Source: a virus. Taken from it: a DNA stretch of 64,000 nucleotides. Under the pieces are notes generated by a model. That model was given only the letters and a program-made list of their open reading frames with translations. It was not told the origin of the DNA and searched no databases. Position numbers and translations under genes: made by a program. The stretch covers positions 81,043-145,042 of the IMG/VR virus record IMGVR_UViG_3300042484_001840. One strand, written 5' to 3'. Positions 1,104 through 23,037 of this stretch are shown one piece after another (the first letter of the stretch is position 1; every line of letters starts with the position of its first letter).

Positions 1104-1256
1104 TGGCGAGTCCCACTGCTGAAAGGCGGTGGGACAACCACTTAGTCCCGCTTGGGCAGTCTCATCCGCCACCGTCATTCATTGGGAGCGCGCGTGCGGG
1201 GCTATCTCGGTATACCCCACCCCTAAAGCCCCGTATCCCCCAAAAATTTCTGGGGG

Positions 1257-1288
1257 TTATCCACAGGCTGGGGATAACCTGTGGATAA
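1257..1288. promoter_or_regulatory. DnaA-box cluster A (3 boxes)
   Basis: TTATCCACA 1257, TGGGGATAA 1269, TGTGGATAA 1280. Confidence 0.85.
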
Positions 1289-1298
1289 CTTTGACCCG

Positions 1299-1475
1299 TC
1301 AGCAAGCCCCCTCACAATACTCGCAAGTGGTCTCGTCAACTTCGTGACAGCCATTCCAGCCTTCGTCAACTTTGTTGTTGTCGGCGCAATACTGTATGCG
1401 ACACCAGTCAGAACAGAAAACAATTCTGTCAACGATGTCGCCACTCTTATCTTCAATCAAAAGTAGGTGAGCCAT
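1299..1475 (-). CDS. 58-aa Cys-rich acidic protein (MAHLLLIEDKSGDIVDRIVFCSDWC...CEYCEGAC)
   Basis: Read manually; promoter 1541-1513, ACTACTAC leader, GAAGGG RBS. Confidence 0.75.
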   Translation of the reverse strand: MAHLLLIEDKSGDIVDRIVFCSDWCRIQYCADNNKVDEGWNGCHEVDETTCEYCEGAC

Positions 1476-1605
1476 TATTTTGTCCCTTCGGTAGTAGTGC
1501 CTTACCTTATCTATTATAGCAGGCGGGTGTAGAAATTACAACTCGATTTGTTAAATTTATTTAGAACTTTGGGGGCGGACTTTCGCCCGCCCCCAACGCT
1601 CATGA

Positions 1606-1893
1606 TCAGGCTTCGCACTCGCAGTCGTAGTGGAGTTCTTCGCACCAACCGCAGTGGTCACGATCCCACTCTTCGTCTTCGTCTTCTTCGTCCTGAATGT
1701 CAAAAGACACCCAAGCCATGACGGTACGAAGCAAGTGGTCGTAATCGCCAGCAGTGGCGTTCTGAGTGAACTCAGCGATTACTTCCCGTGATACGCCGTG
1801 ATTACGGAGCGCACCACAAACTCTTGCGATAATGCTGAACGCATTACCGTCCTGCCCGACGAGCAGAACCGAAACTTCAGGATACTTAACCAT
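1606..1893 (-). CDS. conserved small phage protein (GxDGNAF...GDYDHLL motif) with acidic/Cys tail
   Basis: Recognisable phage motif; own promoter and RBS. Confidence 0.8.
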   Translation of the reverse strand: MVKYPEVSVLLVGQDGNAFSIIARVCGALRNHGVSREVIAEFTQNATAGDYDHLLRTVMAWVSFDIQDEEDEDEEWDRDHCGWCEELHYDCECEA

Positions 1894-2066
1894 AATTTGT
1901 CCCTTCGTTAGTAGTTTTTCCTTACCTGATAAGTATAGCAGATAGGTGTAACAACTACACCATTGTAGAGCGTGTCATTTGTCACATAAGATTTATTCGT
2001 AAAAGTGTGTAAATGCTACACCCACCTGCTATAATATATATATCACCTACTACGAAAGGAAAAAAT

Positions 2067-2399
2067 ATGATTTGGAAAGCAAAAGCCTCCGACATTATTG
2101 ACCACCTTGTTTACTCAGGGGCAGACACCTATGAGTGGTATCACGAACTCACCGAAACCAAAGACGGACAAATTGTCTGTACGATGGAAACGGGCGAGTA
2201 CGACGATGAGTCTGAACCGTTGACAGCGAGTGTTGCGTTCTCCCCCACTCACGCCTTGACAGTCGCCAATGCGATTATCAAGGGACAGGGAGCGGGTTGG
2301 CGCACCGTTCAGTCAGCAGTCGCTAATGACGACTTTGACTCCGATGCCGCGGACATCGTTCTCCAGCACATCGTGCTGAGCGACTTGGTGTTCGGCTGA
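2067..2399 (+). CDS. acidic hypothetical protein (MIWKAK...)
   Basis: Start moved to the ATG after GAAAGGA RBS; promoter GTGTAA(2007)-17-TATAAT(2030). Confidence 0.8.
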   Translation: MIWKAKASDIIDHLVYSGADTYEWYHELTETKDGQIVCTMETGEYDDESEPLTASVAFSPTHALTVANAIIKGQGAGWRTVQSAVANDDFDSDAADIVLQHIVLSDLVFG

Positions 2400-2437
2400 G
2401 ACTTCAGGGCGGGGGAGGGAAACCTCCCCCAAGACCC

Positions 2438-2481
2438 TGTGGATAACCTTTTCCACAGCCTGTGGATAACCCTGTGGATAA
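2438..2481. promoter_or_regulatory. DnaA-box cluster B (4 boxes)
   Basis: TGTGGATAA 2438, 2461, 2473; TTTTCCACA 2449. Confidence 0.88.
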
Positions 2482-2596
2482 CTTTCCCGATAGCCCCGTA
2501 TACAAAGTGCGGGTGCGGGACTGTCACGATAAATAGTCGTGGAAATTCTTGAATTGAAAAAACGGGAAGCGGGGCTAACAAACTAAATAGCAGGGG

Positions 2597-2764
2597 TCAA
2601 GCCCCTGCCACACTAGTCACTCGGTCCACGAGAACCCGCAAATCCAACAGAATGTCTGTCATTTTGCCCGCCTCGGCAATACTGACTCCCCGCAAATCAC
2701 GGAGAGTCTCGTCAATGAGGTTATATATTTCCTCGGTTGGCGTGAGTAAATTTAACTGACTCAT
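2597..2764 (-). CDS. 55-aa hypothetical protein (MSQLNLLTPTEE...)
   Basis: Read manually; ATGA overlap with the upstream gene stop. Confidence 0.65.
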   Translation of the reverse strand: MSQLNLLTPTEEIYNLIDETLRDLRGVSIAEAGKMTDILLDLRVLVDRVTSVAGA

Positions 2765-3153
2765 ACTGTCGCCCCTTCCTTGATCTTGGCTAGTTGTTCG
2801 GCACGAATTGCGTTTACTTCCTCGGCTGAGAATACCTTACCGAACACGCTCAACATGGTACGAATGTCGTCGTCCACGCCCGTAGTGTTACCTTCCTCGT
2901 CGTACCCTGCGATAACAGCAGGTCCGACAAGTCGGTAACCTTCGCCAGCCAAAGTAGAAGCGAACTCGTTTAAGGCGAAGTCAGAACGGAATAAACCTTC
3001 CTCGTTCAACCACAAGTCAAGACCGTTCACCAATTGAACGCTCTCAATGAGTCCCTGAACGAGACTCTGGAGAAACTCCAAAGACTTTTGACCTTCGGGC
3101 TTCTGAACAATGTACGGCGAACCGTCTAAATCGTTGATGTAAATGACTTGCAT
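2761..3153 (-). CDS. DUF3846-like protein
   Basis: LQxLVxGxIE...LWLNEEG...LVGPAVI motif. Confidence 0.75.
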   Translation of the reverse strand: MQVIYINDLDGSPYIVQKPEGQKSLEFLQSLVQGLIESVQLVNGLDLWLNEEGLFRSDFALNEFASTLAGEGYRLVGPAVIAGYDEEGNTTGVDDDIRTMLSVFGKVFSAEEVNAIRAEQLAKIKEGATV

Positions 3154-3245
3154 AATTAGTCCCTTTCGTAGTAGTGTTTATATATTATAGCCTTGTGGGG
3201 CAGGAAAGTCAAATCCTGCCCCACAATTATTTCATTTCTTTAGGC

Positions 3246-3434
3246 TCAGACCGTGACCTTGCGTGCCTTGCGTCGCGCGCGGACATTGCGGATCTCTGCG
3301 CGAAGTGATGCGGTGAGTCCAGCCTTGATCCAAATGGCGGTTATCAAAGAAGCGTTGATCATAACCAGCAAGCCTCTGATGACTTCCAAAGTGTAATCCG
3401 AGAGAGTGAAGTTGATAGTGTATTGAGCAATCAT
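3246..3434 (-). CDS. small membrane protein with basic C-terminus
   Basis: One hydrophobic segment; promoter 3492-3464; RBS. Confidence 0.7.
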   Translation of the reverse strand: MIAQYTINFTLSDYTLEVIRGLLVMINASLITAIWIKAGLTASLRAEIRNVRARRKARKVTV

Positions 3435-3588
3435 TTTGTGCCTTTCGTAGTAGGTATGAGATAAGTATAGCGACTTTGTGTAACTTTTACAACCTTCTAG
3501 TAAGTGTCATTTGTCACACTACTCAATGTTGTAATTTCTACACAGACTCGCTATAATATACTTGTACACAACTACTAAAGGAGAAAAT

Positions 3589-3822
3589 ATGCTCAGCACC
3601 AAAATTGGAAATAGTGACTGGTACTTCGTTCTCAACAACGGAGCGACTCGCAAGTTCTCAGTTCAGTTTCTCGGCAGACGACGAGGAGACGACAAGCGAG
3701 ACATCGTGACATTCCGTGAAGGTGCGCCACACTACGAGGCGTACACGACCGAGACGGGCAAAGCAATTCCGAAGTTTGTCGCAAAAGCAATTTGGGAAGC
3801 AATGGAAAAGTCCCCCGCCTGA
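3589..3822 (+). CDS. hypothetical protein (MLSTKIG...)
   Basis: Promoter TTGTAA(3529)-17-TATAAT(3552), AAGGAG RBS. Confidence 0.8.
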   Translation: MLSTKIGNSDWYFVLNNGATRKFSVQFLGRRRGDDKRDIVTFREGAPHYEAYTTETGKAIPKFVAKAIWEAMEKSPA

Positions 3823-4003
3823 CAAGCGGGGGAAACCCTTTAGCCCCGTTGGATATATGCGTGCGTGGAAAGTTTTGACGCTTCTCTTCCGCCACCGTCA
3901 ATAGTAGGGAACACAGGGGCGGGGCTGTCACCCCTAAATAGGGGTGTTCAGGGGGCGTACCTCACGATACGCCCCCTTCGGGTGGCCAAACTCGCCACTC
4001 GCC

Positions 4004-4450
4004 TCACTCCTCGTTGAACAAGTCGTTCAGCATTTGCGTTTCTAAGTTCCGCATACTAGAACTTTCCACGATGTCACTAACCATCTTGCCTAGGTCAAAG
4101 CCCGCTTCTGCGAGTTCTGCTAGAAGTTCCTCAGACGGTTCTTCCTCAACTTCGGCGTAGTGTTGTTGCTTCTCGTCGTCGCTCATCGCTTGGATACTGC
4201 GGTCATAGCCAACCCAATTCCCAATGTTTGAGTACTCGTCTAGTTGCTCGTGAGTAAGATTGAACTCACGCATAACACGCTCGGTCATGACCGATGAAGG
4301 TATGCCTTCACCTAACTCCACGCTTCGCTTAGCGTTCTCTATGAGAAGGCTCGTACGGTAGTTACAAAGCCGTACGAAGTGGTCAGGGTAGTAGAACGAT
4401 ACTCCATTGGGGAATTCGCTATCAGGGAAAAAATCGGACTTGGTAATCAT
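4004..4450 (-). CDS. acidic hypothetical protein
   Basis: ORF; start after GAAAGGA RBS. Confidence 0.75.
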   Translation of the reverse strand: MITKSDFFPDSEFPNGVSFYYPDHFVRLCNYRTSLLIENAKRSVELGEGIPSSVMTERVMREFNLTHEQLDEYSNIGNWVGYDRSIQAMSDDEKQQHYAEVEEEPSEELLAELAEAGFDLGKMVSDIVESSSMRNLETQMLNDLFNEE

Positions 4451-4466
4451 TAGTAATCCTTTCGGG

Positions 4467-4694
4467 TCAGAGGTCTGGTAAGTAATCAAATTCTACGGTT
4501 GTCTCCCAAGAGATATCTTTCATTTCCCAACCGTAGTGGTAGCGAAGGTTCTTGGTTGCCATGTCAATGGCGACTTCTGTTAGTTGGTCATTATCCAAGT
4601 TGGTGAATGACGGCTCCTCTAAATCTATCTCAACAAAGTGAGTCAGAGAAAAGAAATCTCCAACAAAGGTGACATTACAACTTGCGTGCTTCAT
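4467..4694 (-). CDS. hypothetical protein
   Basis: ORF with GAAAGGA RBS and ACTAC leader. Confidence 0.75.
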   Translation of the reverse strand: MKHASCNVTFVGDFFSLTHFVEIDLEEPSFTNLDNDQLTEVAIDMATKNLRYHYGWEMKDISWETTVEFDYLPDL

Positions 4695-4737
4695 AGTAAT
4701 CCTTTCGGTTGTAGTTGGTATGGGGTGAAGTTGGGGG

Positions 4738-5253
4738 TCAGACCCCCAACTCCTCGGCTAGTTGCTTCTGAGTCTTACCTAGGTGCTTCTTAGCGCACAC
4801 AGGGCCGACTCCGACACGATGACCGTAGCCATCCTTGTCGTCTAGTTCGGCACTACAGAACAAACAAACGCCCGTACGCACGCCGTACTCCATAGCGACG
4901 AGTGCGGTGACCTTTTCGGTTGGCGAGAGCAGGGAGATCGCTCCACGCTCGTAAATCCAACCGCTTTCGCCACGACGCATTGCGTAGAGATTGCCACCTT
5001 CGGATTGCTTCACCTTGTAGATCAAGTGACCGACGAGGTAGAAACCGACTTCGGTAACCTTCTCGGCAGGCTTGACTTCCGTAGCAGGCTTAGCCATAAC
5101 CTTGGCGAACATTGAACGGATAGCCTTTTCTTGCGCTTCGCTCAATGCGCCCTTGTTCTCAAAAGTCTTAGCGATTGAGATTGCGAACGCACTCCACTGT
5201 TGGGCTTTCGCCCATTCAATGACGGAAGTAATCGGGGTCAATGTGGTAGTCAT
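4738..5253 (-). CDS. DUF6011-like zinc-ribbon protein
   Basis: C-terminal CxxC...L...GxGPVC motif; promoter 5315-5287. Confidence 0.75.
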   Translation of the reverse strand: MTTTLTPITSVIEWAKAQQWSAFAISIAKTFENKGALSEAQEKAIRSMFAKVMAKPATEVKPAEKVTEVGFYLVGHLIYKVKQSEGGNLYAMRRGESGWIYERGAISLLSPTEKVTALVAMEYGVRTGVCLFCSAELDDKDGYGHRVGVGPVCAKKHLGKTQKQLAEELGV

Positions 5254-5328
5254 AATTTCTCCTTAGTAGTAGTGGTGATAAATACAAGTATACAGCAGGG
5301 GTGTATGAATTACAACCCCTGCCTCGGC

Positions 5329-5451
5329 TCACCAAGTTGGTGGCCGACCGATGAAGTTGCCATCGGAGTCGTAGCAACCATTGTCGGGGTCAAGGTAGCC
5401 CTGAGCGTCGTAGCGGTCAGGATCGTTGTAGTCGTCATGATCGTTATTCAT
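5329..5451 (-). CDS. 40-aa Asp/Tyr-rich peptide (MNNDHDDYNDPDRYDAQG...)
   Basis: Read manually; promoter 5512-5484, ACTACTAC leader, AAGGGG RBS. Confidence 0.7.
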   Translation of the reverse strand: MNNDHDDYNDPDRYDAQGYLDPDNGCYDSDGNFIGRPPTW

Positions 5452-5533
5452 AATTTCCCCTTTGTAGTAGTTGGTATTTAATAAGTATACAGGCTTCGTG
5501 TAAGAATTACAACCTTATTCGCAAGATTATTGG

Positions 5534-5549
5534 TGTGACATTGGTCACA
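5534..5549. promoter_or_regulatory. perfect CRP/GlxR-type site TGTGA-N6-TCACA (related sites at 1972, 3504, 6228, 10419, 11571, 21818)
   Basis: GTG-N8-CAC palindromes just upstream of -35 boxes. Confidence 0.7.
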
Positions 5550-5774
5550 GGCCAGTCGTCTGGGGGCTTGGGGGTCGTCGGCCGGGTTTGGGGAGTTTGG
5601 CCACCCTGCTTCGGAGGCATTTAGTCCCGCTTGGTTATGGCGAGTTTCCCGTGTTTGTCGCAAGCCCCGCAGGTGAAAACGGCAAAGCGGAGATGCGGGG
5701 CTAGTGGTGGTTTTCGGATTAGCAATTATATGTAAGGGGTGGGGCAGGGTTTCCCCCGCCCCACCATGCCCCTG

Positions 5775-6143
5775 TCACCACACAGGAGTAAATCGTCGCT
5801 CGTCGGCGTTGTAAGCGTGTTCGTAGTGAGTGCCTTTATTCTCAAGGTTACGAACTTCAATTTCTTGAACGAGACGCTTGGCAATTGCGCTGAAGTTCAA
5901 GCCATCAGTGCCTGCCACCATTCGCTTGCGTCGGTGGGCGATAACCGAAGCGGTAACCAATTCCGAACGCTTGAGTGCGTTCTCGTCGGCGTACACCTTC
6001 GTTACTGCGTCGGCTACTTGTTGGTAATCCCAACAGGCGTTGTACATTCCGCCGAGCAGTGTAATTAAATCAAATCGTGACGGAAGTGAATAGTAATCGC
6101 CCTGTAATTTGGTGGGCTTATTCTTATGCCATTTGGTAAGCAT
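5775..6143 (-). CDS. hypothetical protein
   Basis: Promoter 6206-6178; GAAAGGA RBS. Confidence 0.8.
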   Translation of the reverse strand: MLTKWHKNKPTKLQGDYYSLPSRFDLITLLGGMYNACWDYQQVADAVTKVYADENALKRSELVTASVIAHRRKRMVAGTDGLNFSAIAKRLVQEIEVRNLENKGTHYEHAYNADERRFTPVW

Positions 6144-6316
6144 ATTTTTTCCTTTCGTAGTAGTGGTTATGAATATAAGTATACACCTTCTGTGTAGGAA
6201 TTACAACTTCTAGCGTCAAATAATTGTGTGACAAATGACACTAGGCAGAACTGTGTAAATGCTACACCCACCTGCTATACTTGTATATGTAAGGAAAACC
6301 TACCGAAAGGAATACT

Positions 6317-6499
6317 ATGAATAACGCAGAATTGTTCGTGTGGAATGAAATTGAAGAGGGCTTCATTCGTGAGTATGGAATTGAAGACGGTATACGAGTG
6401 TGCGATTACGCACAGCGTGTATATTACAGGAGTGGCAAGATGACCCTAGCCGTCAAGGCGGCAACGGAATGGGCTAGCAGAATGAGAATGGGAGTCTGA
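6317..6499 (+). CDS. small helical protein, probable paralogue of 8333-8512 and 11332-11499
   Basis: Shared ExLIRxYG/HG..G.RI pattern; promoter 6253-6281. Confidence 0.75.
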   Translation: MNNAELFVWNEIEEGFIREYGIEDGIRVCDYAQRVYYRSGKMTLAVKAATEWASRMRMGV

Positions 6500-6500
6500 T

Positions 6501-6701
6501 ATGGCAAGTGTTTCAGTAAGCGGTGTCGCCCTACTAGGTAAGACAACGGCAGTAGGTTCTCATATAGATTTACGAGAACGCCTAGCCTACCTAGAGGGCG
6601 TTCTCAGCGGGCTAGAGAACGCTGGAGTAGTTCTGCCTACGGGAGACTACGAGACGCTCTACAGGACGCTCAAAGATACCAAAGAATTTCTTTACGAATA
6701 A
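6501..6701 (+). CDS. hypothetical protein
   Basis: ORF directly coupled to the upstream gene, GGAG RBS. Confidence 0.7.
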   Translation: MASVSVSGVALLGKTTAVGSHIDLRERLAYLEGVLSGLENAGVVLPTGDYETLYRTLKDTKEFLYE

Positions 6702-6766
6702 CTTGACATTCCTACACCTAGGGTGTATAATATACCTATAACGAAAACTAACCGAAAGGACTACTA

Positions 6767-6937
6767 ATGGCTACCGTTCCCAACTACGAAATTGAACGAC
6801 TAAATGAGTTTGTCGCAGAAATTGAAATTGCGATTAAGGAACACGGTTACGCATATGCGTACGGTGCGACAATGTTCAACTTGAAGTCTTTGCTCAACCA
6901 AATTACCCGTGAGCCAGCACCTTGGGAGAACCTATGA
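6767..6937 (+). CDS. 56-aa hypothetical protein (MATVPNYEIERL...)
   Basis: Read manually; perfect TTGACA(6703)-17-TATAAT(6726) promoter; GAAAGGA RBS. Confidence 0.75.
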   Translation: MATVPNYEIERLNEFVAEIEIAIKEHGYAYAYGATMFNLKSLLNQITREPAPWENL

Positions 6938-7322: not shown

Positions 7323-7392
7323 ACGCTAATTGTATCCACGGAAGTATACCTAAGGGGTATGACATAGTTGCCCATGCCATACCCCTTGATTA

Positions 7393-16119: not shown

Positions 16120-16134
16120 CTATTTGGAGAAAAA

Positions 16135-16801: not shown

Positions 16802-17263
16802 ATGTCAGCATCACCGACAACACTTACAGGAAACCTTGTTTCAGATCCCGAACTCAAGTTCTTGGATAATGGAACAGCGAAACTATCAGGCTCAATTGCC
16901 GTTGGTCACTATTGGACTGACGCATCGGGCGAAAAGCAAGAAAAGACTTCATTCATTGACTTCGTTGCTTGGCGTTACCTTGCCGACGACGCAGCACGAG
17001 TGTTGGAAAAGGGCGTTCGTATCATTGTTACGGGTCGCCTTGAACAGCGTTCGTGGGAACAAGACGGGGCTAAGCGAAGCAAGGTTGAACTTATCGCTGA
17101 CGACATCGCAGTCGCAGTGAAGTCAATTGAGTCGTTTGACCGTCGCCGTGCTGGTGAAAAGGGTGCTGTTGCGCCGAAGCCAGCCGCTGCTAGGCAGGCA
17201 CAACGCCCTGTACTTAAGGCGACACCAACGCAATCCGTAATGGAAGATGCCGAGCCATTCTGA
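16802..17263 (+). CDS. ssb: single-stranded DNA-binding protein
   Basis: GNLVSDPEL, VxGRLEQRSW, acidic EPF tail; TTGACA(16732)-17-TAACCT promoter. Confidence 0.93.
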   Translation: MSASPTTLTGNLVSDPELKFLDNGTAKLSGSIAVGHYWTDASGEKQEKTSFIDFVAWRYLADDAARVLEKGVRIIVTGRLEQRSWEQDGAKRSKVELIADDIAVAVKSIESFDRRRAGEKGAVAPKPAAARQAQRPVLKATPTQSVMEDAEPF

Positions 17264-17352
17264 GCGAATTCTCGTTCTTCATAGTGTGTCTACTAGGGAC
17301 ATACGCAGTAGTGAAATTGGTTGATGGTCGGGGCAAGAAATAGCCCCGACCA

Positions 17353-17556
17353 TTACCATTTCTGATGTATGAATTCCCACACTTCAACTGGCACAGAGTC
17401 CTCGTAGTACGGATCAAGGATTGTACCGATGAGTTCCGAAGCAATGTCGGGTCTGACCATCGCAAGGAAGTTTGATATCGCCTGCCCTAGTCGTTGACTC
17501 TCCCTATTGCGTTCAAAGTAATCGGTTGAGTTACTAAGGAACTCTATGTAGTTCAC
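17353..17556 (-). CDS. small phage protein (RxGQ...DPYY motif)
   Basis: GTGA overlap with the upstream stop. Confidence 0.7.
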   Translation of the reverse strand: MNYIEFLSNSTDYFERNRESQRLGQAISNFLAMVRPDIASELIGTILDPYYEDSVPVEVWEFIHQKW

Positions 17557-17816
17557 TCTGTCCACTCCCAAGTTCCGTTTTGGTGAAGCGTAGCATTTGA
17601 CGGAGCGTCACAGTTCTTGATGTCCACGAACATTTGCCCGTCGTTCTCCCAAGTAAAGTTAGCGTTGAGCACTACTGGGCAGGGATTGTCATTATCGGGG
17701 TCTACGATGTCTGCTAGGCGTGTTATACCAAGCATAGAGAATATTCCTAGTCCACCCCAAAAAGTGAAGCGGACTGCTGTGCGGATAGAGTAGTAGAGTG
17801 ATGTTTTAGTAGTCAT
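17553..17816 (-). CDS. membrane protein, probably leaderless
   Basis: TTGACA(17851-46)-17-TATAAT(17828-23), 6 nt before ATG. Confidence 0.7.
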   Translation of the reverse strand: MTTKTSLYYSIRTAVRFTFWGGLGIFSMLGITRLADIVDPDNDNPCPVVLNANFTWENDGQMFVDIKNCDAPSNATLHQNGTWEWTE

Positions 17817-17844
17817 AGTTACATTATACAAAACCTATCCATGA

Positions 17845-18312
17845 ATGTCAAGGATTGTTATGGCAGATAAGATAAACAAAAAATCAGCACCAAGACAGAA
17901 AATCTTAGGGATAGAACGGGAAGGCGCATGGGGAAGGGTTGAGTATCTCCATCGGTTGGCGTGCGGGCATACCGAGCGACGGAAGCGACCAGCGAAAACT
18001 GAGATTATCTCTTGTTCGTGGTGCGTGGTTGCGGAAGAGCAAACGGAAGTTCTACAGAGTTTCGCCACGAAGAGACCACAAAGCCCCGCTGAAGATGATG
18101 TTTTTGACAGAATGGGATCGCTGATTGCTGTTTCGGAAAGAGAAGTTTCCAAACTGAAGGCAGAAATTGCGTCTAAGTTTGATGTTCCTGTGGACTATGT
18201 TGATGTTGTCGTGGAAGACGATGACGGGACTCTTTCGGTTTCGTACGCAATTATCTTCTTGTCAGCGCAAGACATCAAGAACATTCTCGTGGACTCTAAA
18301 GAAAATACTTGA
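17845..18312 (+). CDS. hypothetical protein with CGH...CxxC zinc motif
   Basis: ORF track; Cys/His motif. Confidence 0.75.
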   Translation: MSRIVMADKINKKSAPRQKILGIEREGAWGRVEYLHRLACGHTERRKRPAKTEIISCSWCVVAEEQTEVLQSFATKRPQSPAEDDVFDRMGSLIAVSEREVSKLKAEIASKFDVPVDYVDVVVEDDDGTLSVSYAIIFLSAQDIKNILVDSKENT

Positions 18313-18378
18313 CATTCACCCACTCACTCAGTAGACTATGGCTAAAGTTACTACTAACAACAACAGAAAGATACAATC

Positions 18379-18795
18379 ATGAAGCGACTTATCCCAATTA
18401 TCATCGCCACCCTCGCACTTACTGCGTGTGGAACTAAAACCGTGTATGTCACCAGCACCGAAGCACCCGACACAACTGTAGAAGTTACCGAGACGACTGA
18501 TGCGCCAATTGCGACTCCTGCGCCTACAGTCCCGTCTTACACTTCAGAAGATGAATTCATCGCAGACATCTACAACGAAAACACTGGTCCCATCTACCTT
18601 GAAGACCAAGACCTGATTGACACAGGATATGCGGTTTGTGATGGTTTGCGTAGTGGTATGACTGGCTACGATGCACTTGATGCAATTGTCTCATCATCTG
18701 AAGGTGATACCGCTGTAGAGGAACTGCTTATCAATGTTACAGCATCGGCGGTTGTGAACTTCTGCCCTGAGCAGGCATACAAGTTCGGAGAATGA
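18379..18795 (+). CDS. DUF732-like lipoprotein
   Basis: Lipobox LTAC; GxxVC...FCP motif; TTGACA-17-TAGACT promoter (18309-18337). Confidence 0.8.
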   Translation: MKRLIPIIIATLALTACGTKTVYVTSTEAPDTTVEVTETTDAPIATPAPTVPSYTSEDEFIADIYNENTGPIYLEDQDLIDTGYAVCDGLRSGMTGYDALDAIVSSSEGDTAVEELLINVTASAVVNFCPEQAYKFGE

Positions 18796-18796
18796 T

Positions 18797-18982
18797 ATGA
18801 CCAATAGAGACACTTACGACATTTTGTCATACGAAGAAGAACAGAAGCAATCAAAAAGCGGGACTAACATTCAGATCAACACCCTGATTGACGCAATGAT
18901 TGATGCGGAGAAGTGTTTATTCCGTAACAAAGACGAAAACCTAATGCCTGTCAGTGAACAAGAATACAAATTAGGAGAATGA
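18797..18982 (+). CDS. hypothetical protein
   Basis: Operonic, GGAG RBS. Confidence 0.6.
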   Translation: MTNRDTYDILSYEEEQKQSKSGTNIQINTLIDAMIDAEKCLFRNKDENLMPVSEQEYKLGE

Positions 18983-18983
18983 A

Positions 18984-19415
18984 ATGAAGCGACTCGCCTT
19001 AATCGCACTACTAGTCCCGTTACTCGTTTCATGTAGCGCAGCCATGAGCAACGAGACAACAACTCTTCAGCCGCTACCAACAACGATCAACATTCCCGTT
19101 TTTGACACAATTCCCGCACTAGATGGCAAGCCATACACCGACGAAGAGTTCGCGTTTTTTGATGATGTAACTTTCTTCTACGGGGCTAGTACCGACTTGA
19201 GCGATGAGAAACTTCTTGAGTTGGGAGTTACATGGTGTCAGTTAATGATCGGAGGCATGAGTGCCGAAGATGTTATCGGGCGGATCAACGAAGGATCAAG
19301 CGATAACGCCGATGCTCTTCTTCACTTCTCTGTTGTAAATGCAGGGATTGAGAACTTATGCCCCTCGCAGTGGGATAAAGCGGAGTATATTGCTCTCAAT
19401 TCGTTCTTGCCGTGA
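18984..19415 (+). CDS. DUF732-like lipoprotein
   Basis: Lipobox LVSC; GxxWC...LCP motif. Confidence 0.75.
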   Translation: MKRLALIALLVPLLVSCSAAMSNETTTLQPLPTTINIPVFDTIPALDGKPYTDEEFAFFDDVTFFYGASTDLSDEKLLELGVTWCQLMIGGMSAEDVIGRINEGSSDNADALLHFSVVNAGIENLCPSQWDKAEYIALNSFLP

Positions 19416-19417
19416 TG

Positions 19418-19636
19418 TCATACGGGACTATCTGAAAGTGTGAGAAACTTTGTGATGGGGAAAAAAATGAAATTAGCCTCAGTTGGCATCGCCACAATTA
19501 CTGTTTCGTATGTTTTTTCAGCACTTCTGTTCATGCTTATTGCCATGACTCTCATGAACCCTACGCCTCGTGTTCGGGAGATATTCCTACAGCCCCGCAC
19601 TACGGGTCGTCGGCGTGGTTCGTTGTCTGACTTCAC
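19418..19636 (-). CDS. basic hypothetical protein
   Basis: GTGA overlap with the upstream gene. Confidence 0.5.
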   Translation of the reverse strand: MKSDNEPRRRPVVRGCRNISRTRGVGFMRVMAISMNRSAEKTYETVIVAMPTEANFIFFPITKFLTLSDSPV

Positions 19637-19803
19637 TTCATAGGTTTTTCGGTGAGTCTGATGTACGGACTTGCCATCGCCTTCGCATAGGCGCGCGAGT
19701 GGCTTAGTCCTTCTTGGTGGCGCTGTAGGACATACTCCATAGAGAACGCCCTACTCCACCTATTCGCCTTCATCGTTCTGAGTGTTAGTAGTTGGTAGTT
19801 CAT
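19633..19803 (-). CDS. 56-aa hypothetical protein (MNYQLLTLRTMK...)
   Basis: Read manually; GGAGG RBS. Confidence 0.6.
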   Translation of the reverse strand: MNYQLLTLRTMKANRWSRAFSMEYVLQRHQEGLSHSRAYAKAMASPYIRLTEKPMK

Positions 19804-19837
19804 TGTTGCCCTCCGTTCTAGGGGAACAGTACAGCGG

Positions 19838-20101
19838 TCACCACCCGCTGTACTGTTCGTATTCTTCCCGTGTTGGTACTTCGTTCAGCATACGCTGGTA
19901 GGACTCAACGCAACTCTCAAAGTCGCTGGTCTCGTGCCAATCTTCTTCGGACTTGCCTTCGTTGGTCTCTAGCCAAAAGCCGTATGACTCGTGGTAGGAG
20001 TCGGTTCCGATGAAACTCTCTGATGCCTCATCGTAAGCGTCTTGCGCTTCGTGCCTGTCTTGGTATGGCTGTTGTAGCCAAGTGTCGTAGTCAACGCCCA
20101 T
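19838..20101 (-). CDS. acidic hypothetical protein (MGVDYDTWL...)
   Basis: TTGACA-17-TATACT promoter (20170-20142); ACTACTAC leader; AAGGAG RBS. Confidence 0.8.
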   Translation of the reverse strand: MGVDYDTWLQQPYQDRHEAQDAYDEASESFIGTDSYHESYGFWLETNEGKSEEDWHETSDFESCVESYQRMLNEVPTREEYEQYSGW

Positions 20102-20275
20102 TGTCTTGCTCCTTTGTAGTAGTTGCTTCCTTATGAATACAAGTATAGCGAGAATGTGTAAGGTTGTCAACCTTTTGTTGGAAAATATTTAGAAATATAT
20201 TTTTGGGAAATAGTTGACATTCTCTCACTTATCCCGTATAATGTATCTATACACAAATCTACTAAAAGGAAAAAT

Positions 20276-20464
20276 ATGAAAATCTTAGAAATCCCCGAAA
20301 ACGAAACTATTGAAATCATCTCGGCTAATGTCATAGAGTTTTGGCGAGACGGGCAACTGATGGGCGATACCCACAAGGGTCTAGCCGATACCATTCGCCT
20401 GACGGGTATCAAGGGGCTGACAGTAGTCCTGACCGACAGACTCCCCAACGAGAGCGAGCGGTGA
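20276..20464 (+). CDS. hypothetical protein
   Basis: Perfect TTGACA(20214)-17-TATAAT(20237); AAGGA RBS. Confidence 0.75.
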   Translation: MKILEIPENETIEIISANVIEFWRDGQLMGDTHKGLADTIRLTGIKGLTVVLTDRLPNESER

Positions 20465-20512
20465 CAGCCGCTCGGCAAGCGGGGCTAGTTGAGATACTGG
20501 GGTAAAACCCGA

Positions 20513-20540
20513 ACGACCTGAGTATGTCGTAAAACTACTC
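20513..20540 (+). ncRNA. putative H-type pseudoknot RNA element
   Basis: ACGAC/GTCGT stem; loop GAGTA pairs with downstream TACTC. Confidence 0.4.
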
Positions 20541-20580
20541 TTCTTTGCTATCTCCCGATAGCCCCGTACTCGCCACGAAC

Positions 20581-20677
20581 TCGGATTTTTTTGTGACGGA
20601 CTTTTTGCTACTGCCGTTTTTTCATTTCGTGCTTCGGATTTTTTTGTGAAAACTTTTCGCTACTGCTATTTTTTCAG
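20581..20677. repeat. imperfect 44-bp direct repeat (53-bp period)
   Basis: TCGGATTTTTTTGTGA...ACTTTT.GCTACTGC..TTTTTCA at 20581 and 20634. Confidence 0.8.
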
Positions 20678-20703
20678 TACGGGCTTTTATGCAAAAAAAA
20701 AAG

Positions 20704-20736
20704 TTATCCACAGGCTGTTGATAAACCTGTGGATAA
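20704..20736. promoter_or_regulatory. DnaA-box cluster F (3 boxes)
   Basis: TTATCCACA 20704, TGTTGATAA 20716, TGTGGATAA 20728. Confidence 0.85.
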
Positions 20737-20739
20737 CTC

Positions 20740-21048
20740 TCATTGCTGACTCGTGGAAACTTTTGTTCTGTTCCGTAACCCAATCATTGCGGACAAATAA
20801 AATCCTGCCGCGTGACGCTCCATCTCTGTTTCTCCGCCCCACACGCCGTACTCGTGGTTTTTCCTGCCGTACTCTCGGCACTCTGCGGATACAGGGCATT
20901 GCCGACATATAGCGACCGCTTGTGCTTCACGCTTTACCCGTCTCTCAGGTCGCTCGGCAACCTTAGGGAAGAATAGGTCTAACTTGCCACTACAAATTCC
21001 CAACTTCTGCCATTCGGTATCTAGAGTTTGAGTGTCGTTGTCGGTCAT
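20740..21048 (-). CDS. whiB: WhiB-family Fe-S transcription factor
   Basis: C...LFF...CxxCPV...C, GVWGG.TE.ER. Confidence 0.92.
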   Translation of the reverse strand: MTDNDTQTLDTEWQKLGICSGKLDLFFPKVAERPERRVKREAQAVAICRQCPVSAECREYGRKNHEYGVWGGETEMERHAAGFYLSAMIGLRNRTKVSTSQQ

Positions 21049-21749
21049 ACAAACTCCATAATCAGAACTGAGTCGTCTTCCATTGTGTCTCTGCCAAGCA
21101 CATGAACTTCCGTGCCTTCGCTATTCCATATTGCTCGCACATGATGATGACCGCAAATGTGAAAGCGAGGCTTCACCTTCTGCTGGATCTCAAGTACTAA
21201 CTCTCGCTGGTACACAGATACGGGAATGTCGTCCTTGTATGTGAGTTCAACTCCGTAGGGTGCGTCATGAGTAATGAGCACATCTACTTCCTCGTCGCTG
21301 AGTGTGTCAATATGGTAGGGGCTGATGAGTTCTTGCTTCCACCAAGTACGACCTAGTTCCCTATCTTTCCAATCCACGCTATACGCTCCGCCATACCCCA
21401 TAAAGGTATAGCCGTTCATATCAAAGCGACAGCCACGAGGTATCCACTTCACCCATTCGTTGGGCGTAGGGATAGGTCTAGTGTCTCCGTGCTGAGTGCG
21501 TAGGTCGTCTAGTAGGTCGTGGTTCTCGTGGTTGCCATCTATCCACATGAGTGGAATATTGTTGGCTTCTGCGAGTGCCACACAGCGTGCTAGGAACTTC
21601 TTACCAAAGGGCAAATGTACCCAGTAGCCAAAGTCACCGCAAGCGATAATCGTATTCACTTCGTTCTTGTGTGCGTGGGCGTATAGCCATTCAAGGTGCT
21701 GAATGTTTCCGTGAATGTCGCCTGCGAATAGTACTTTCATTATGTTCAC
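21045..21749 (-). CDS. calcineurin-like metallophosphoesterase
   Basis: GDIHG, GDFG, GNHE, THD, GHHH motifs. Confidence 0.9.
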   Translation of the reverse strand: MNIMKVLFAGDIHGNIQHLEWLYAHAHKNEVNTIIACGDFGYWVHLPFGKKFLARCVALAEANNIPLMWIDGNHENHDLLDDLRTQHGDTRPIPTPNEWVKWIPRGCRFDMNGYTFMGYGGAYSVDWKDRELGRTWWKQELISPYHIDTLSDEEVDVLITHDAPYGVELTYKDDIPVSVYQRELVLEIQQKVKPRFHICGHHHVRAIWNSEGTEVHVLGRDTMEDDSVLIMEFV

Positions 21750-21835
21750 CTCCAGGGTGATTAGTAGTTATGTGTATAGTATATCAGAATTGTATATAGA
21801 TTACAACCCCGATGAGCGTGTGATTAGTCACACGA

Positions 21836-22105
21836 TTACTTGACATCTCCCCAACCTCGCCAAGCCTTACCCCAACGAGGCGAGGTAGTGCGTAGGTAGC
21901 ACGCCCACAAGGGGTGGCGCTCTACGACCATCTCGGGCAAGATGACATGAACGAATAGGTCTAGTCGCCGTATGAACCTACAAGGCGAACCTAACCTATA
22001 GCGAGACACAGGGGCGCTCTCATGAGCCTCCACGAACGCTCTAAGGCTCGTAGGGTCTATATCCCAAGGGTCAAGCCCTACTCTGTCTGCGAGTGTGCGT
22101 ATCAA
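21836..22105 (-). CDS. hypothetical protein
   Basis: ORF overlapping the upstream stop; start uncertain. Confidence 0.5.
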   Translation of the reverse strand: MIRTLADRVGLDPWDIDPTSLRAFVEAHESAPVSRYRLGSPCRFIRRLDLFVHVILPEMVVERHPLWACYLRTTSPRWGKAWRGWGDVK

Positions 22106-22368
22106 ACTAGTTCGTACCACTTCATGATATGCGGACCACAACCCCCATAGTGGATAGCCATGATCTCGGCAAGCACTAACTCAAACTCTTTGCCTTGTGA
22201 GTAGGTCAAGGTAGGGTCGTTGCCTAGCACTTGCTTGACTCCCTTGTATGTGTCTGCGATGAGTTGAGCCTGCCTAAGTGACTCAAGGCGAGGCGTTGTA
22301 TTCTTTGATACTGCCTTGCTTCTGACGATCTCTCGTACTTGCTCTATGTTGCTGAGTAGGTCGTTCAT
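22102..22368 (-). CDS. hypothetical protein
   Basis: Operonic ORF. Confidence 0.65.
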   Translation of the reverse strand: MNDLLSNIEQVREIVRSKAVSKNTTPRLESLRQAQLIADTYKGVKQVLGNDPTLTYSQGKEFELVLAEIMAIHYGGCGPHIMKWYELV

Positions 22369-22369
22369 C

Positions 22370-22600
22370 TCATTTCCCCTTCGTTGTTTGTAGTCGTACT
22401 CGTGTGCTCGTGACTTTCTTTTGCTCTGTTGCCTTGCGTGTCAAGCGACCCCAACCCCAACTAGTAGGTGACTTCACTTCGCTTTGCTTTGCCTTGCGTG
22501 TCAAGTAAAAGTGTGCGACAAGTGTGTCATTGGGATTGAACTCTGACAGTTCATCTATGAGCATTTGTACTGTCATTTTTGATAATGTATTGCGTGTCAT
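22370..22600 (-). CDS. basic hypothetical protein (LTRKA twice)
   Basis: ACTACTAC leader, AAGGA RBS, TTGCTT-17-TATGAT promoter. Confidence 0.7.
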   Translation of the reverse strand: MTRNTLSKMTVQMLIDELSEFNPNDTLVAHFYLTRKAKQSEVKSPTSWGWGRLTRKATEQKKVTSTRVRLQTTKGK

Positions 22601-22751
22601 GCTTTGTCCTTTAGTAGTAGTGACAAGGTAATCATACACAACTATCAAACAAAAAGCAACCTTTATCAAAAGAAATATTTATTATAGTTATGTGACATAA
22701 TCAACAACTATCATAACAATAATGATTACATATATAGCAATTACATATCAG

Positions 22752-22926
22752 TTATACACAACCTGTGGATAAGGTGTGGATAACTTTGTACACAGGCTGT
22801 GGGTAACGCTGTGGATAACGATGAGTGCTGTGGATAATGCTGTGTATAACCTGTGTATAACCTGTGGATAAAGCGAGGCATCAACTGTGGATAACTAGCA
22901 CCATCTGTGGACAAAGATGTGGATAA
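22752..22926. repeat. large DnaA-box array G (about 13 boxes, mostly co-oriented) next to an AT-rich tract
   Basis: TGTGGATAA 22764, 22775, 22810, 22829, 22863, 22886, 22918; TGTGTATAA 22841, 22852; TTATACACA 22752. Confidence 0.93.
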
Positions 22927-23037
22927 CTGTTGCGAAAATGAGGATGCGGGGCTATTTTTCAGACGACCTCAGAACAGGGGGGTAGAGACACACACACCAT
23001 ATTGCATTGTTTCCATATAGATTTATCCAAAGTCGTC

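What the first reader, a model, noticed from the sequence alone, without database searches (positions are those of the whole stretch)
1197..22953. Unexplained heptamer CGGGGCT/AGCCCCG: 38 copies in the first 23 kb, none noticed afterwards
Seen (hand count): 19 copies on each strand, e.g. 1197, 1227, 2492, 2570, 3842, 3920, 5663, 5696, 7077, 7101, 7984, 8045, 9967, 10025, 10871, 10901, 20480, 20560, 22947. Seven lie inside the SNF2 coding sequence. About 3 would be expected at uniform base composition. Intergenic copies often occur as opposed pairs 25-80 bp apart, extended to GCGGGGCTA. Inference: a Chi-like nuclease-attenuation signal, a translocase/nucleoid-protein site, or a site for an injected phage protein that protects or pulls in the leading DNA.
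Basis: partly seen in the sequence, partly recalled or inferred. Interest (0 to 1): 0.8.

Follow-up and report, generated by a model that had tools for sequence, protein, structure and literature searches.

The report
Heptamer that labels a phage's early compartment
A 7-base DNA word, CGGGRCT, is packed about 60 times into one 32-kb early-gene block of a 134-kb actinobacterial phage and is completely absent from the other 100 kb; hundreds of related uncultured phage contigs carry the word enriched around the same gene, which points to a still unidentified protein that tells early DNA from the rest of the chromosome.

Summary
All 38 CGGGGCT copies sit at the listed positions, against 3.9 expected. 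The real word is CGGGRCT: CGGGACT adds 19 copies. That gives 62 sites (30+/32-), all within 32 kb of a ~133.7-kb circular phage genome and none in the other 100.7 kb.

Codon usage does not explain it. Eleven genes carry 24 sites against 2.1 after synonymous shuffling.

The same word marks one block of 28-46 kb in four other complete genomes (137-159 kb). Across the five site-free arcs 43.6 sites are expected and 0 are seen. It is enriched in about 70 of 80 related loci.

Sites are conserved at orthologous positions, and G/A exchange at base 5 is tolerated. There is no bias in strand, gene orientation or reading frame. No -10 element lies at a fixed distance. The arms of inverted pairs show no hairpin covariation. 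Neighbouring sites keep a ~10-bp helical phasing, with AGYCCCG-N17-19-CGGGRCT dominant.

Best reading: a double-stranded-DNA binding word for a trans-acting protein that marks the early compartment, probably to silence or insulate it. A Chi-like signal, promoter, terminator or attC/REP element is disfavoured. The reader protein and the function are inferred, not shown.

The parts
1..22953 (.). Window part of the CGGGRCT-rich compartment. The whole compartment is genome 72011-103989, which is window -9031 to 22953. This part holds 53 of the 62 sites (38 CGGGGCT and 15 CGGGACT). GC is 0.46-0.50, against about 0.42 elsewhere.
1144..1233 (.). Intergenic hub between convergent genes, with sites at 1144(-, A-type), 1197(+) and 1227(-). 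DnaA boxes lie at 1257 and 1281.
2492..2576 (.). Hub with sites at 2492(-), 2516(+, A-type) and 2570(+). Sites 2492/2516 form a 24-bp-phased inverted pair with one G-type and one A-type arm. Three DnaA boxes lie just upstream (2439-2482).
3842..3926 (.). Hub with sites at 3842(-) and 3920(+), downstream of a minus-strand cassette.
5623..5702 (.). Hub with sites at 5623(-, A-type), 5663(-) and 5696(+). Sites 5663/5696 form a 33-bp-phased inverted pair. The hub lies between the stop of one cassette and the promoter of the next.
7077..7223 (.). Hub with sites 7077(-)/7101(+), a 24-bp-phased inverted pair, plus 7217(-).
7984..8112 (.). Hub with sites at 7984(-), 8045(+) and 8106(+), spaced 61 and 61 bp.
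9967..10059 (.). Hub with sites at 9967(+), 10025(-) and 10053(-); the last two are a tandem pair 28 bp apart. It sits beside the large DnaA-box array at 9613-9901.
10871..10907 (.). Hub with sites at 10871(+) and 10901(-), between convergent genes. A DnaA box lies at 10829.
11797..19597 (.). 28 sites (16 G-type, 12 A-type) along the plus-strand operon: SNF2/HARP, two SLT-like genes, DUF932, SSB, two DUF732 genes and small ORFs. 24 sites lie inside the 11 ORFs and every ORF has at least one. They occur in both orientations and in varied reading frames. Gaps between consecutive sites run from about 100 to 740 bp.
20480..20566 (.). Hub with sites at 20480(+) and 20560(-). DnaA boxes lie at 20704 and 20729. 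It is next to a WhiB-like gene at 20740-21048 (-).
22947..22953 (+). Last site, and the right edge of the compartment. It abuts the co-oriented DnaA-box array at 22765-22927.
22954..64000 (.). Window part of the site-free arc, which carries replication, nucleotide-metabolism and tail genes. CGGGRCT occurs 0 times here and in the rest of the genome (101.7 kb arc in all; 7.7 expected).

Best explanation
CGGGRCT is a recognition word on double-stranded DNA for a sequence-specific, trans-acting DNA-binding protein. It works as an address label for one genome compartment. That compartment is the early block: small, individually promoted genes plus the SNF2-DUF932-SSB operon. The phage belongs to a large family of uncultured actinobacterial phages of about 130-160 kb.

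Inside the compartment selection keeps about 1.5-2.5 sites per kb. In intergenic hubs they form helically phased pairs (AGYCCCG-N17-19-CGGGRCT and longer spacings stepping by about 10 bp). Inside genes they occur as single sites. Selection removes the word from the other ~100 kb.

On that reading a stray site elsewhere would be harmful. I found no RNA polymerase or sigma-factor gene in the phage.

The best candidate reader, also inferred, is a conserved 121-aa protein with a helicase-associated (HA) domain and a sigma-70 region-4-like helix-turn-helix (HTH). It is encoded inside the compartment.

Shown: the word, its degeneracy, its confinement and exclusion, its conservation, its strand symmetry and its phasing. 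The confidence given is for the whole statement. That it is a selected protein-binding word on duplex DNA I put at about 0.8, and the silencing/insulation output alone at about 0.35.
For: Confinement and exclusion. There are 62 sites in 32 kb and 0 in 100.7 kb. Four other complete genomes each have one block with all 27-65 sites; across the five site-free arcs 43.6 sites are expected and 0 are seen, P about 1e-19. In an unbiased scan of all 7-mers for spatial confinement, this word ranks first in all five genomes.

Family-wide presence. It is enriched in about 70 of 80 SNF2-linked loci with GC 0.43-0.59. Block edges are sharp. In one clade the density drops from 2-4 per kb to 0 exactly at the SNF2 start and stays at 0 for at least 12 kb.

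Selection on sites. At 70-80% nucleotide identity, 68% of sites are retained at the orthologous position, against 18% of control 7-mers. At 80-90% identity the figures are 88% and 40%. Mismatches concentrate at base 5 and are largely G<->A. Codon shuffling gives 2.1 sites against 24 observed.

Double-stranded-DNA protein site. There is no strand bias (30/32), 196 sense against 206 antisense inside conserved genes, all frames used, no flank conservation and no -10 at a fixed offset. Inverted pairs peak at start-to-start distances of 24-26, 33-34, 44-46 and 53-57 bp. Tandem pairs peak at 27-29 and 36-38 bp. The opposite inverted arrangement is almost absent below 60 bp. The two arms do not covary: 33 Watson-Crick-compatible pairs against 54.5 expected.

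Context. The block coincides with small ORFs of mixed orientation and about 18 sigma-A-type cassette promoters. No sigma region 2, T7-type RNA polymerase or integrase was found. Two WhiB-like genes lie at or in the block.

Candidate reader. The HA plus sigma-70 region-4-like protein is present inside the block in all five genomes. Sites lie at -101, -77, -29 and +74 from its start here, and four lie upstream of its homologue in G004. The recognition helix (T/S)RQR(I/V)HQI is almost invariant across homologues. The model has pLDDT 87 with a C-terminal three-helix HTH.
Against: 'Early' is therefore inferred from gene content and promoter type only.

Roadblock sites inside the phage's own SNF2-SSB operon would also hinder its expression before shutoff.

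The candidate reader has no nearby sites in the two G-only genomes, G005 and G007. Its recognition helix barely changes in the A-only lineages, only T to S, so it does not obviously explain the shifts in specificity. Its fold search gave no significant whole-chain match.

Hubs often also carry host DnaA boxes, which fits a host factor at least as well. Absolute exclusion from 100 kb is stronger than usually seen for transcription-factor sites and looks more like avoidance of a cleavage site.
Confidence: 0.45

Rival explanations
1. The word is a binding site for a conserved host (actinobacterial) DNA-binding protein. The early compartment either recruits that protein at time zero or titrates it as a decoy or sponge, together with the DnaA and LexA boxes found in the same hubs.
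For: 8 of 13 hubs also have perfect DnaA boxes within about 70 bp, and six LexA boxes precede SNF2. Early DNA must work before any phage protein exists. The core word is invariant across phages with GC 0.43-0.59. Earlier first-stage notes proposed a decoy panel of host-regulator sites.
Against: DnaA and LexA boxes are not conserved in distant relatives, whereas the heptamer is. Whole clades use only G or only A at base 5, and this does not follow GC content, which suggests a co-evolving reader. A decoy does not by itself explain strict purging elsewhere. No known actinobacterial regulator motif that I can recall matches, and a literature search for the word found nothing relevant.
Confidence: 0.2
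2. The word is the target of a sequence-specific enzyme, such as a restriction-like nuclease, a nickase or a DNA-modifying enzyme of phage or host origin. The rest of the genome avoids it as it avoids restriction sites, while the early block is deliberately processed or marked at these sites.
For: It is a 7-bp asymmetric word with one degenerate purine, which resembles Type IIG/IIL/III and BREX recognition sequences (my own knowledge). Exclusion of 0 against 43.6 expected is comparable to the genome's clear restriction-site avoidance: GGCGCC, GACGCC and GAGCCC each occur 0 times. The phage encodes an N6/N4 DNA methylase and a DUF1599 'nucleotide modification associated' domain protein.
Against: Tenfold enrichment, conservation of sites at orthologous positions and ~10-bp helical phasing of pairs are not expected of cleavage targets. 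Cutting 62 sites in DNA that must be packaged intact is hard to reconcile. The word's top strand has no adenine when R is G. No nuclease gene has been linked to it.
Confidence: 0.12
3. It is a Chi-like signal that attenuates a host helicase-nuclease (RecBCD, AddAB or AdnAB) on the first-entering or replicating DNA.
For: It is a short, G-rich, asymmetric word at high density. The block carries recombination genes (SNF2/HARP, SSB, DUF932, metallophosphatase) with an exonuclease nearby. Known Chi words differ between taxa and can be degenerate (my own knowledge).
Against: There is no strand polarity at any scale: 30+/32-, interleaved, 196 sense against 206 antisense. The preferred arrangement is a phased inverted pair. 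The word is purged from the other 100 kb, which Chi would not require. The density of about 2 per kb is roughly ten times that of Chi in E. coli (my own knowledge). The assemblies are circular, so no 'leading end' is established.
Confidence: 0.07
4. It is a structural nucleic-acid element: the stems of terminator hairpins, REP/REPIN-like elements, or integron attC-like cassette recombination sites at the 3' ends of the gene cassettes.
For: In the cassette region, sites occur as inverted pairs with 17-73-nt spacers, mostly just downstream of cassette stops or between convergent genes. One pair (7077/7101) is followed by a T-run.
Against: The arms do not covary; heterotypic C/A and T/G arm combinations are favoured, with 33 compatible pairs against 54.5 expected. 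Spacing is helically phased. 24 sites lie singly inside genes in all frames. No tyrosine or serine recombinase or Y1 transposase was found in the genome. There was no Rfam match.
Confidence: 0.03

Closest known systems
Stoperators of Cluster A mycobacteriophages (L5 gp71 / TipsytheTRex repressor; PMC9283540)
   Same: Both occur in actinobacterial phages. Both have many copies (more than 20) of a short asymmetric word spread over kilobases, bound (there) by one protein, and used to stop transcription beyond promoters.
   Different: Stoperators are 13-mers found throughout the genome in short intergenic spaces. Their orientation follows the direction of transcription and is required for function, and the phage is temperate. 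Here the word is a 7-mer with one degenerate base. It occurs in both orientations, inside genes as well, and in phased inverted pairs. It is confined to one compartment and purged from the rest. The phage has no integrase.
Domain-restricted chromosomal sites: matS/MatP (E. coli Ter macrodomain) and Noc/SlmA binding sites (my own knowledge)
   Same: In both, a DNA word is present only in, or absent only from, one large chromosomal domain, and a dedicated protein reads it to treat that domain differently.
   Different: Those sites are 13-16-bp palindromes that number in the tens per chromosome of several megabases. Their absence elsewhere needs little selection. Here a 7-mer must be actively purged (0 against 43.6 expected), and this happens in a phage.
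Chi (crossover hotspot instigator) sites (my own knowledge)
   Same: Both are short, G-rich, asymmetric, over-represented words that can lie inside genes in any frame.
   Different: Chi is read on one strand and is strongly co-oriented. These sites have no polarity, are phased in inverted pairs, and are excluded from most of the genome.
NarL/GerE-type 'heptamers' and sigma region 4 recognition of the -35 element (my own knowledge)
   Same: In both, a 7-bp partly degenerate half-site is read by a small sigma-4/GerE-like HTH, and the half-sites appear in several orientations and spacings. The candidate reader here has such an HTH.
   Different: NarL sites lie at promoters of a regulon. They are not spread at 2 per kb over a 30-kb domain or purged elsewhere. 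No receiver domain is present, and binding has not been shown here.
T4 MotA boxes / prereplicative middle promoters, and the repeat- and DnaA-box-rich first-step-transfer region of T5 (my own knowledge)
   Same: In both, a word or set of repeats is characteristic of the early part of a large lytic phage genome.
   Different: MotA boxes sit at -30 of oriented promoters that have a -10 element. Here no -10 lies at a fixed offset and there is no orientation rule. T5's signals are local, not spread over the compartment.

Membership tests
Chi-like nuclease-attenuation site | Recognised on one strand, so copies are co-oriented relative to DNA ends or the direction of replication | tested here: not met
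   30+/32-, interleaved along the block. 196 sense against 206 antisense in conserved genes family-wide. Five genomes are each close to 1:1.
Chi-like nuclease-attenuation site | Over-represented and skewed in the host chromosome, with a cognate RecBCD/AddAB/AdnAB | not testable with these tools
   The host is unknown. The one genome-contig scan returned only a phage contig binned into a Bacteroidia MAG.
Stoperator / immunity-repressor sites (Cluster A type) | Site orientation correlates with the direction of transcription | tested here: not met
   Both orientations occur within single genes and operons. The feature is as described in PMC9283540.
Stoperator / immunity-repressor sites (Cluster A type) | Sites lie in short intergenic spaces across the whole genome of a temperate phage | tested here: not met
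   24 sites lie inside 11 ORFs. Sites are confined to 24% of the genome. No integrase or resolvase was found.
Stoperator / immunity-repressor sites (Cluster A type) | Bound by a phage-encoded repressor that blocks elongation | not testable with these tools
   There is only a candidate reader, the HA plus sigma-4-like HTH protein.
Hairpin elements (intrinsic terminator, REP/REPIN, integron attC) | The two arms base-pair, so variable positions covary | tested here: not met
   In R-type loci, 33 of 103 pairs are Watson-Crick compatible against 54.5 expected under independence.
Hairpin elements (intrinsic terminator, REP/REPIN, integron attC) | A cognate enzyme is present (IntI tyrosine recombinase, or RAYT/Y1 transposase) | tested here: not met
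   PF00589, PF00239 and PF01797 were not found in the genome, and the controls gave hits.
Promoter element (-35-like or MotA-box-like) | A -10 element at a fixed distance, and orientation that follows the downstream gene | tested here: not met
   TANNNT occurs at most 26 times among 1427 sites at any offset, and sites show no orientation rule.
Restriction-site avoidance | The word is depleted relative to composition throughout the genome | tested here: inconclusive
   It is depleted to 0 outside the block (43.6 expected over five genomes), but enriched about tenfold inside.
Domain-marking sites (matS / Noc-NBS type) | Sites are restricted to one contiguous chromosomal domain | tested here: met
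   There is one block per genome in five complete genomes, and this is the top-ranked confined 7-mer in each.
Domain-marking sites (matS / Noc-NBS type) | A 13-16-bp palindrome bound by a dedicated dimer (MatP, Noc, SlmA) | tested here: not met
   The unit is a 7-bp asymmetric word. Pairs have 17-19-bp non-conserved spacers. No homologue was searched for.

The most novel reading that the evidence does not exclude
CGGGRCT is the address label of an unrecognised genome-partitioning system in a large clade of uncultured actinobacterial phages. A dedicated reader assembles on helically phased sites and handles the whole 30-45-kb early compartment as one physical unit. It might silence or sequester it, hold it during stepwise DNA entry, or selectively modify or process it. 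One phage chromosome would then run as two separately controlled domains, and the word would be lethal anywhere else.
Probability: 0.3. Interest if true: 0.9.

Novelty: new variant of a known kind. Interest (0 to 1): 0.8.

Why it matters
Temporal control in large lytic phages is usually explained promoter by promoter. Here a 7-base word divides the chromosome into a 'with' and a 'without' domain. It is under strong selection both to be present and to be absent, across a family with at least 540 contigs in IMG/VR.

If a reader protein is found, it would give:
- a new way for a phage to switch off or insulate an entire gene class;
- a compact, orientation-independent DNA tag and binder pair for engineering in Actinobacteria;
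- a simple sequence signature for delimiting early regions in uncultured phage genomes.

The case is also a clear example of positive and negative selection acting on the same word within one genome.

Tried and rejected
- Composition or codon artefact: rejected by dinucleotide shuffles, Markov expectations and synonymous-codon shuffles.
- tRNA or known RNA families: none found.
- Longer repeat unit: no flank conservation.
- Loci that seemed to lack the word (L004, L040, L050, L051, L055, L060, L062): most carry SNF2 proteins identical or nearly identical to those of word-rich loci and simply lie on the site-free side of a block edge. My first idea of a 'motif swap' to ACGACAA in L004 is therefore not supported and was not pursued.
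- Gene presence/absence association across 82 loci: uninformative, for the same reason.
- Close cultured relatives: none by DNA. The SNF2 is at most 35% identical to those of cultured phages. The capsid protein is about 50% identical to those of Brevibacterium phage Cantare and Gordonia phages, but the 50-kb half of Cantare that I fetched shows no SNF2 block among its annotated genes and only 3 CGGGGCT and 9 CGGGACT copies, all on one strand. There is no homologue of the candidate reader in cultured phages.
- Host identification: the scan with the phage ribonucleotide reductase found only a mis-binned phage contig.
- Literature: the word itself gave nothing relevant, and the AdnAB/Chi search gave no motif.
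- Fold search of the candidate reader: no significant whole-chain match, only local HTH similarities to resolvase/Hin, IstA, sigma-4 and LuxR-type domains.
- Specificity-residue comparison for A-only lineages: only two sequences, confounded with phylogeny.

Full report
**1. The observation**

The pattern search finds exactly 38 CGGGGCT/AGCCCCG copies in the window. Dinucleotide-preserving shuffles give 3.85 +/- 1.96, with a maximum of 10.

The window is the last 64 kb of a 145,042-bp virus contig. The contig's final 11,341 bp repeat its first 11,341 bp with 42 mismatches, so the unique genome is about 133.7 kb and was assembled as a circle. Genome-wide there are 43 copies, all at genome 72089-103989. 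The feature therefore starts 9 kb before the window. 'First 23 kb' is an accident of where the window begins.

**2. The real word**

Of the 21 single-base variants, only CGGGACT behaves like the core word: 19 copies in the block and 0 outside. None of the others is enriched. The word is therefore CGGGRCT, with 62 sites (30+/32-) over 31,978 bp.

Outside the block, 6-11 copies are expected from Markov models of order 1-4, and none is present.

The flanks carry little information. The absence of C at -1 and +1 in this genome can be explained by overlapping words that the genome avoids everywhere, such as GGGCTC/GAGCCC, which occurs 0 times. Over 1427 unique family sites no flank base exceeds 45%.

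**3. Not codon usage**

In the plus-strand operon at 11817-19643 (SNF2/HARP, two SLT-like genes, DUF932, SSB, two DUF732 genes and small ORFs) there are 24 sites inside 11 ORFs. Shuffling synonymous codons within each gene gives a mean of 2.1 and a maximum of 7 in 2000 trials.

The sites occur in varied reading frames and both orientations, and they encode different peptides. Every one of the 11 ORFs has at least one site.

**4. What the block is**

Major capsid, portal and protease genes identify a tailed phage. The nearest cultured capsids, at about 50% identity, belong to Brevibacterium and Gordonia phages. Two WhiB-like genes, DUF732 domains and Gram-positive-type LexA boxes point to an actinobacterial host.

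The block has these properties:
- Its GC is higher than the rest of the genome: 0.46-0.49 against about 0.42.
- It consists of small ORFs of mixed orientation.
- It carries about 18 near-identical sigma-A-type promoters (TTGTAA, 17-bp spacer, TATACTTAT, then a shared leader), most of them followed by a short ORF, with a small palindrome in the spacer.
- It carries arrays of perfect DnaA boxes, 29 copies against 2 elsewhere.
- Six LexA boxes precede SNF2.

No sigma region 2, T7-type RNA polymerase, integrase, resolvase or Y1 transposase was detected. I infer that the block is the early, host-polymerase-driven compartment of a lytic phage. No expression data could be obtained.

In the cassette part, the sites sit in 2-5-site intergenic hubs, mostly just after cassette stops or between convergent genes. 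Eight of the 13 hubs also have DnaA boxes within about 70 bp. In the operon they lie inside genes, with gaps between consecutive sites of about 100 to 740 bp.

**5. It is a family trait**

A scan of IMG/VR with an SNF2 alignment found 540 related stretches, of which 80 loci were kept. CGGGRCT is enriched, at 1-3 per kb, in about 70 of them, across GC 0.43-0.59.

Some clades use only G at base 5 and one clade uses only A.

The loci that seemed to lack the word mostly carry SNF2 proteins identical or nearly identical to those of word-rich loci. They simply lie on the far side of a block edge. In one clade of 23 loci the density is 2-4 per kb for at least 10 kb upstream of SNF2, then exactly 0 from the SNF2 start for at least 12 kb.

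Five more contigs were examined in full, and the pattern repeats:

| Genome | Length | Sites | Block length | Site-free arc |
|---|---|---|---|---|
| G000 (this phage) | 133.7 kb | 62 | 32.0 kb | 101.7 kb |
| G004 | 144.9 kb | 45 | 28.5 kb | 116.4 kb |
| G005 | 148.4 kb | 65 | 46.5 kb | 101.9 kb |
| G006 | 137.8 kb | 27 | 34.4 kb | 103.4 kb |
| G007 | 158.7 kb | 36 | 34.2 kb | 124.5 kb |

G004-G007 are complete circular assemblies. A fifth contig, the 50-kb fragment G001, has 26 sites in its first 21.5 kb and 0 in the remaining 28.8 kb.

Summed over the five complete genomes in the table, 43.6 sites are expected in the site-free arcs and none is seen, P about 1e-19. In an unbiased test of every 7-mer with at least 10 copies for confinement to an arc, this word ranks first in all five genomes. 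It is the only word in the top 30 of all five.

**6. Selection on individual sites**

In blastn alignments between family members, sites are retained at the orthologous position far more often than control 7-mers stay identical:

| Alignment identity | Sites retained | Control 7-mers identical |
|---|---|---|
| 70-80% | 68% | 18% |
| 80-90% | 88% | 40% |
| 90-97% | 97% | 72% |

Mismatches pile up at base 5 and are mostly G<->A: 54 of 61 in the 80-90% class and 11 of 11 in the 90-97% class. This is the signature of a recognition word with one degenerate purine.

**7. How it is read**

- Inside conserved genes the sites are 196 sense against 206 antisense, and all frames are used. A signal read from RNA or from one DNA strand is therefore unlikely.
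- No TANNNT lies at a fixed offset, at most 26 among 1427 sites at any offset. It is not a promoter element.
- Neighbouring sites are strongly ordered:
  - The arrangement AGYCCCG...CGGGRCT dominates. Start-to-start peaks are at 24-26 bp (106 unique pairs), 33-34 bp (30), 44-46 bp and 53-57 bp.
  - Tandem pairs peak at 27-29 and 36-38 bp.
  - The opposite inverted arrangement is almost absent below 60 bp.
  - A ~10-bp ladder of this kind is what face-of-the-helix protein contacts on duplex DNA produce.
- The two arms of the inverted pairs do not covary. In lineages that use both G and A, only 33 of 103 pairs could base-pair at the variable position, against 54.5 expected. Mixed G/A pairs are preferred. 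This argues against hairpins (terminators, REP, attC). It suggests, if anything, avoidance of perfect palindromes.
- This phage has pairs at 24 bp (2492/2516, 7077/7101, and window -3184/-3160) and at 33 bp (5663/5696), and a tandem pair at 28 bp (10025/10053).

**8. Best explanation**

The shown facts call for a trans-acting protein that recognises CGGGRCT on double-stranded DNA, binds cooperatively at phased sites, and is beneficial in the early compartment but harmful elsewhere.

I consider the most likely use to be compartment-wide silencing, insulation or roadblocking of early DNA while the host polymerase is redirected. This would explain:
- the even coverage, including at least one site in every gene of the operon;
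- the independence from orientation;
- the sharp edges at the borders of transcription units;
- the purging from the long middle and late operons.

This step is inference.

One candidate reader is a 121-aa protein encoded inside the block in all five genomes (L001:16917-17282). It has a helicase-associated (HA) domain and a C-terminal sigma-70 region-4-like HTH. Its recognition helix is nearly invariant across homologues of 41-98% identity. The structure model is confident, pLDDT 87. Its gene is flanked by four sites here and preceded by four in G004.

Three points weaken this candidate. There are no nearby sites in G005 and G007. The recognition helix changes by only T to S in the A-only lineages. 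The fold search gave only local HTH similarities.

Other DNA-binding candidates are a winged-HTH 160-aa protein just outside the block and the two WhiB-like proteins. A host protein remains possible.

**9. Rivals**

- *Host-factor site, for recruitment or as a decoy.* It fits the co-location with DnaA and LexA boxes and the need for early DNA to act before phage proteins exist. It fits the lineage-specific G-only and A-only usage and the strict exclusion less well.
- *Enzyme target (restriction-like, nicking or modifying).* It fits the shape of the word and the absolute exclusion. It does not fit the enrichment, the positional conservation or the phasing.
- *Chi-like signal.* It fails on polarity and arrangement.
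- *Hairpin, terminator, REP or attC.* It fails the covariation test and lacks the enzymes.
- *Composition.* It fails every control.

**10. Comparison with the known**

The nearest described system is the stoperator network of Cluster A mycobacteriophages. There, more than twenty asymmetric 13-mers across the genome are bound by a monomeric repressor that also stops elongation, and site orientation follows transcription and is required (PMC9283540).

The present case differs in several ways:
- the word is 7 bp long with a degenerate base;
- there is no orientation rule;
- sites lie inside genes;
- sites form phased inverted pairs;
- the word is confined to one compartment and actively excluded from the rest;
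- the phage has no integrase.

Domain-restricted bacterial sites (matS, Noc/SlmA sites), NarL-type heptamers and T4 MotA boxes each share one aspect only.

I therefore class it as a new variant of multi-copy regulatory binding sites. It is not a member of any named family. Its two-sided selection and compartment logic are, to my knowledge, undescribed. Neither the literature search for the word nor a word search of this scan's earlier notes found it.

**11. Limits**

There are no binding, expression, modification or DNA-end data. The host is unknown. 'Early' is inferred from gene content and promoters. The family sample is anchored on SNF2, so phages without that gene were not examined.

Noticed in passing
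window 52660-64000 (duplicate of genome 1-11341): The contig's last 11,341 bp repeat its first 11,341 bp with 42 mismatches. Of these, 41 lie within the first 655 bp of the repeat (about window 52765-53313), just beyond the 3' end of the 1205-aa collagen-like tail-fibre gene. This could be strain microdiversity collapsed by the assembler or a hypervariable locus. Either way the genome is circular or permuted in assembly, not 145 kb long.
   Followed up: partly
whole genome (window 1-64000 and upstream): Several restriction-type words are strongly avoided in both compartments. GGCGCC, GACGCC/GGCGTC and GAGCCC/GGGCTC each occur 0 times. AGCGCT, ACGCGT, GGATCC and CCWGG are heavily depleted.
   Followed up: no
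window 9613-9901 and 22765-22927, plus smaller clusters at 1257-1289, 2439-2482, 20704-20737: Arrays of perfect DnaA boxes (TTATCCACA): 29 copies in the block against 2 in the other 100 kb. Eight of 13 heptamer hubs have boxes within about 70 bp. These boxes are not conserved in distant relatives.
   Followed up: partly
window 11595-11730: Six tandem Gram-positive-type LexA boxes (CGAAC-N4-GTTCG) lie directly upstream of a TTGACA and the SNF2/HARP gene.
   Followed up: no
window 615-11536 and upstream (L001): About 18 copies of a shared sigma-A-like promoter (TTGTAA, 17-bp spacer, TATACTTAT), with an embedded palindrome TGTAA-N3-TTACA and a common leader ending in an AAGG-type ribosome site. 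Most are followed by a short ORF. This looks like an operator for a second, different regulator.
   Followed up: partly
window 1165, 3888, 7956, 9934 (+ strand) and upstream copies: A 16-nt repeat, TC(A/T)TCCGCCACCGTCA, lies 25-40 nt from a heptamer. On the minus strand it could be the start of leaderless ORFs (GTG GCG GA...).
   Followed up: no
L001:8525-8815 (+) and window 20740-21048 (-): Two WhiB-like transcription factor genes. One sits at the left edge of the heptamer block in all five complete genomes (about 70% identity). The other is inside the block.
   Followed up: partly
L001:11811-12281 (-), window 33460-34584 (-), window 47714-49189 (-): A DUF1599 'nucleotide modification associated' domain protein, an N6/N4 DNA methylase and a tryptophan-halogenase-like flavoprotein. 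They hint that the phage DNA may be modified.
   Followed up: no
L004 (IMG/VR contig, 5.3 kb): ACGACAA/TTGTCGT occurs 9 times on both strands (0.6 expected) in a locus that lies outside the heptamer block. It may be a word of another compartment, or a coding bias.
   Followed up: no
L121 (JBDNIH010000009.1): A 25.9-kb contig filed under a 'Bacteroidia bacterium' MAG encodes a ribonucleotide reductase 75% identical to this phage's. It is probably a related phage contig binned by mistake.
   Followed up: no
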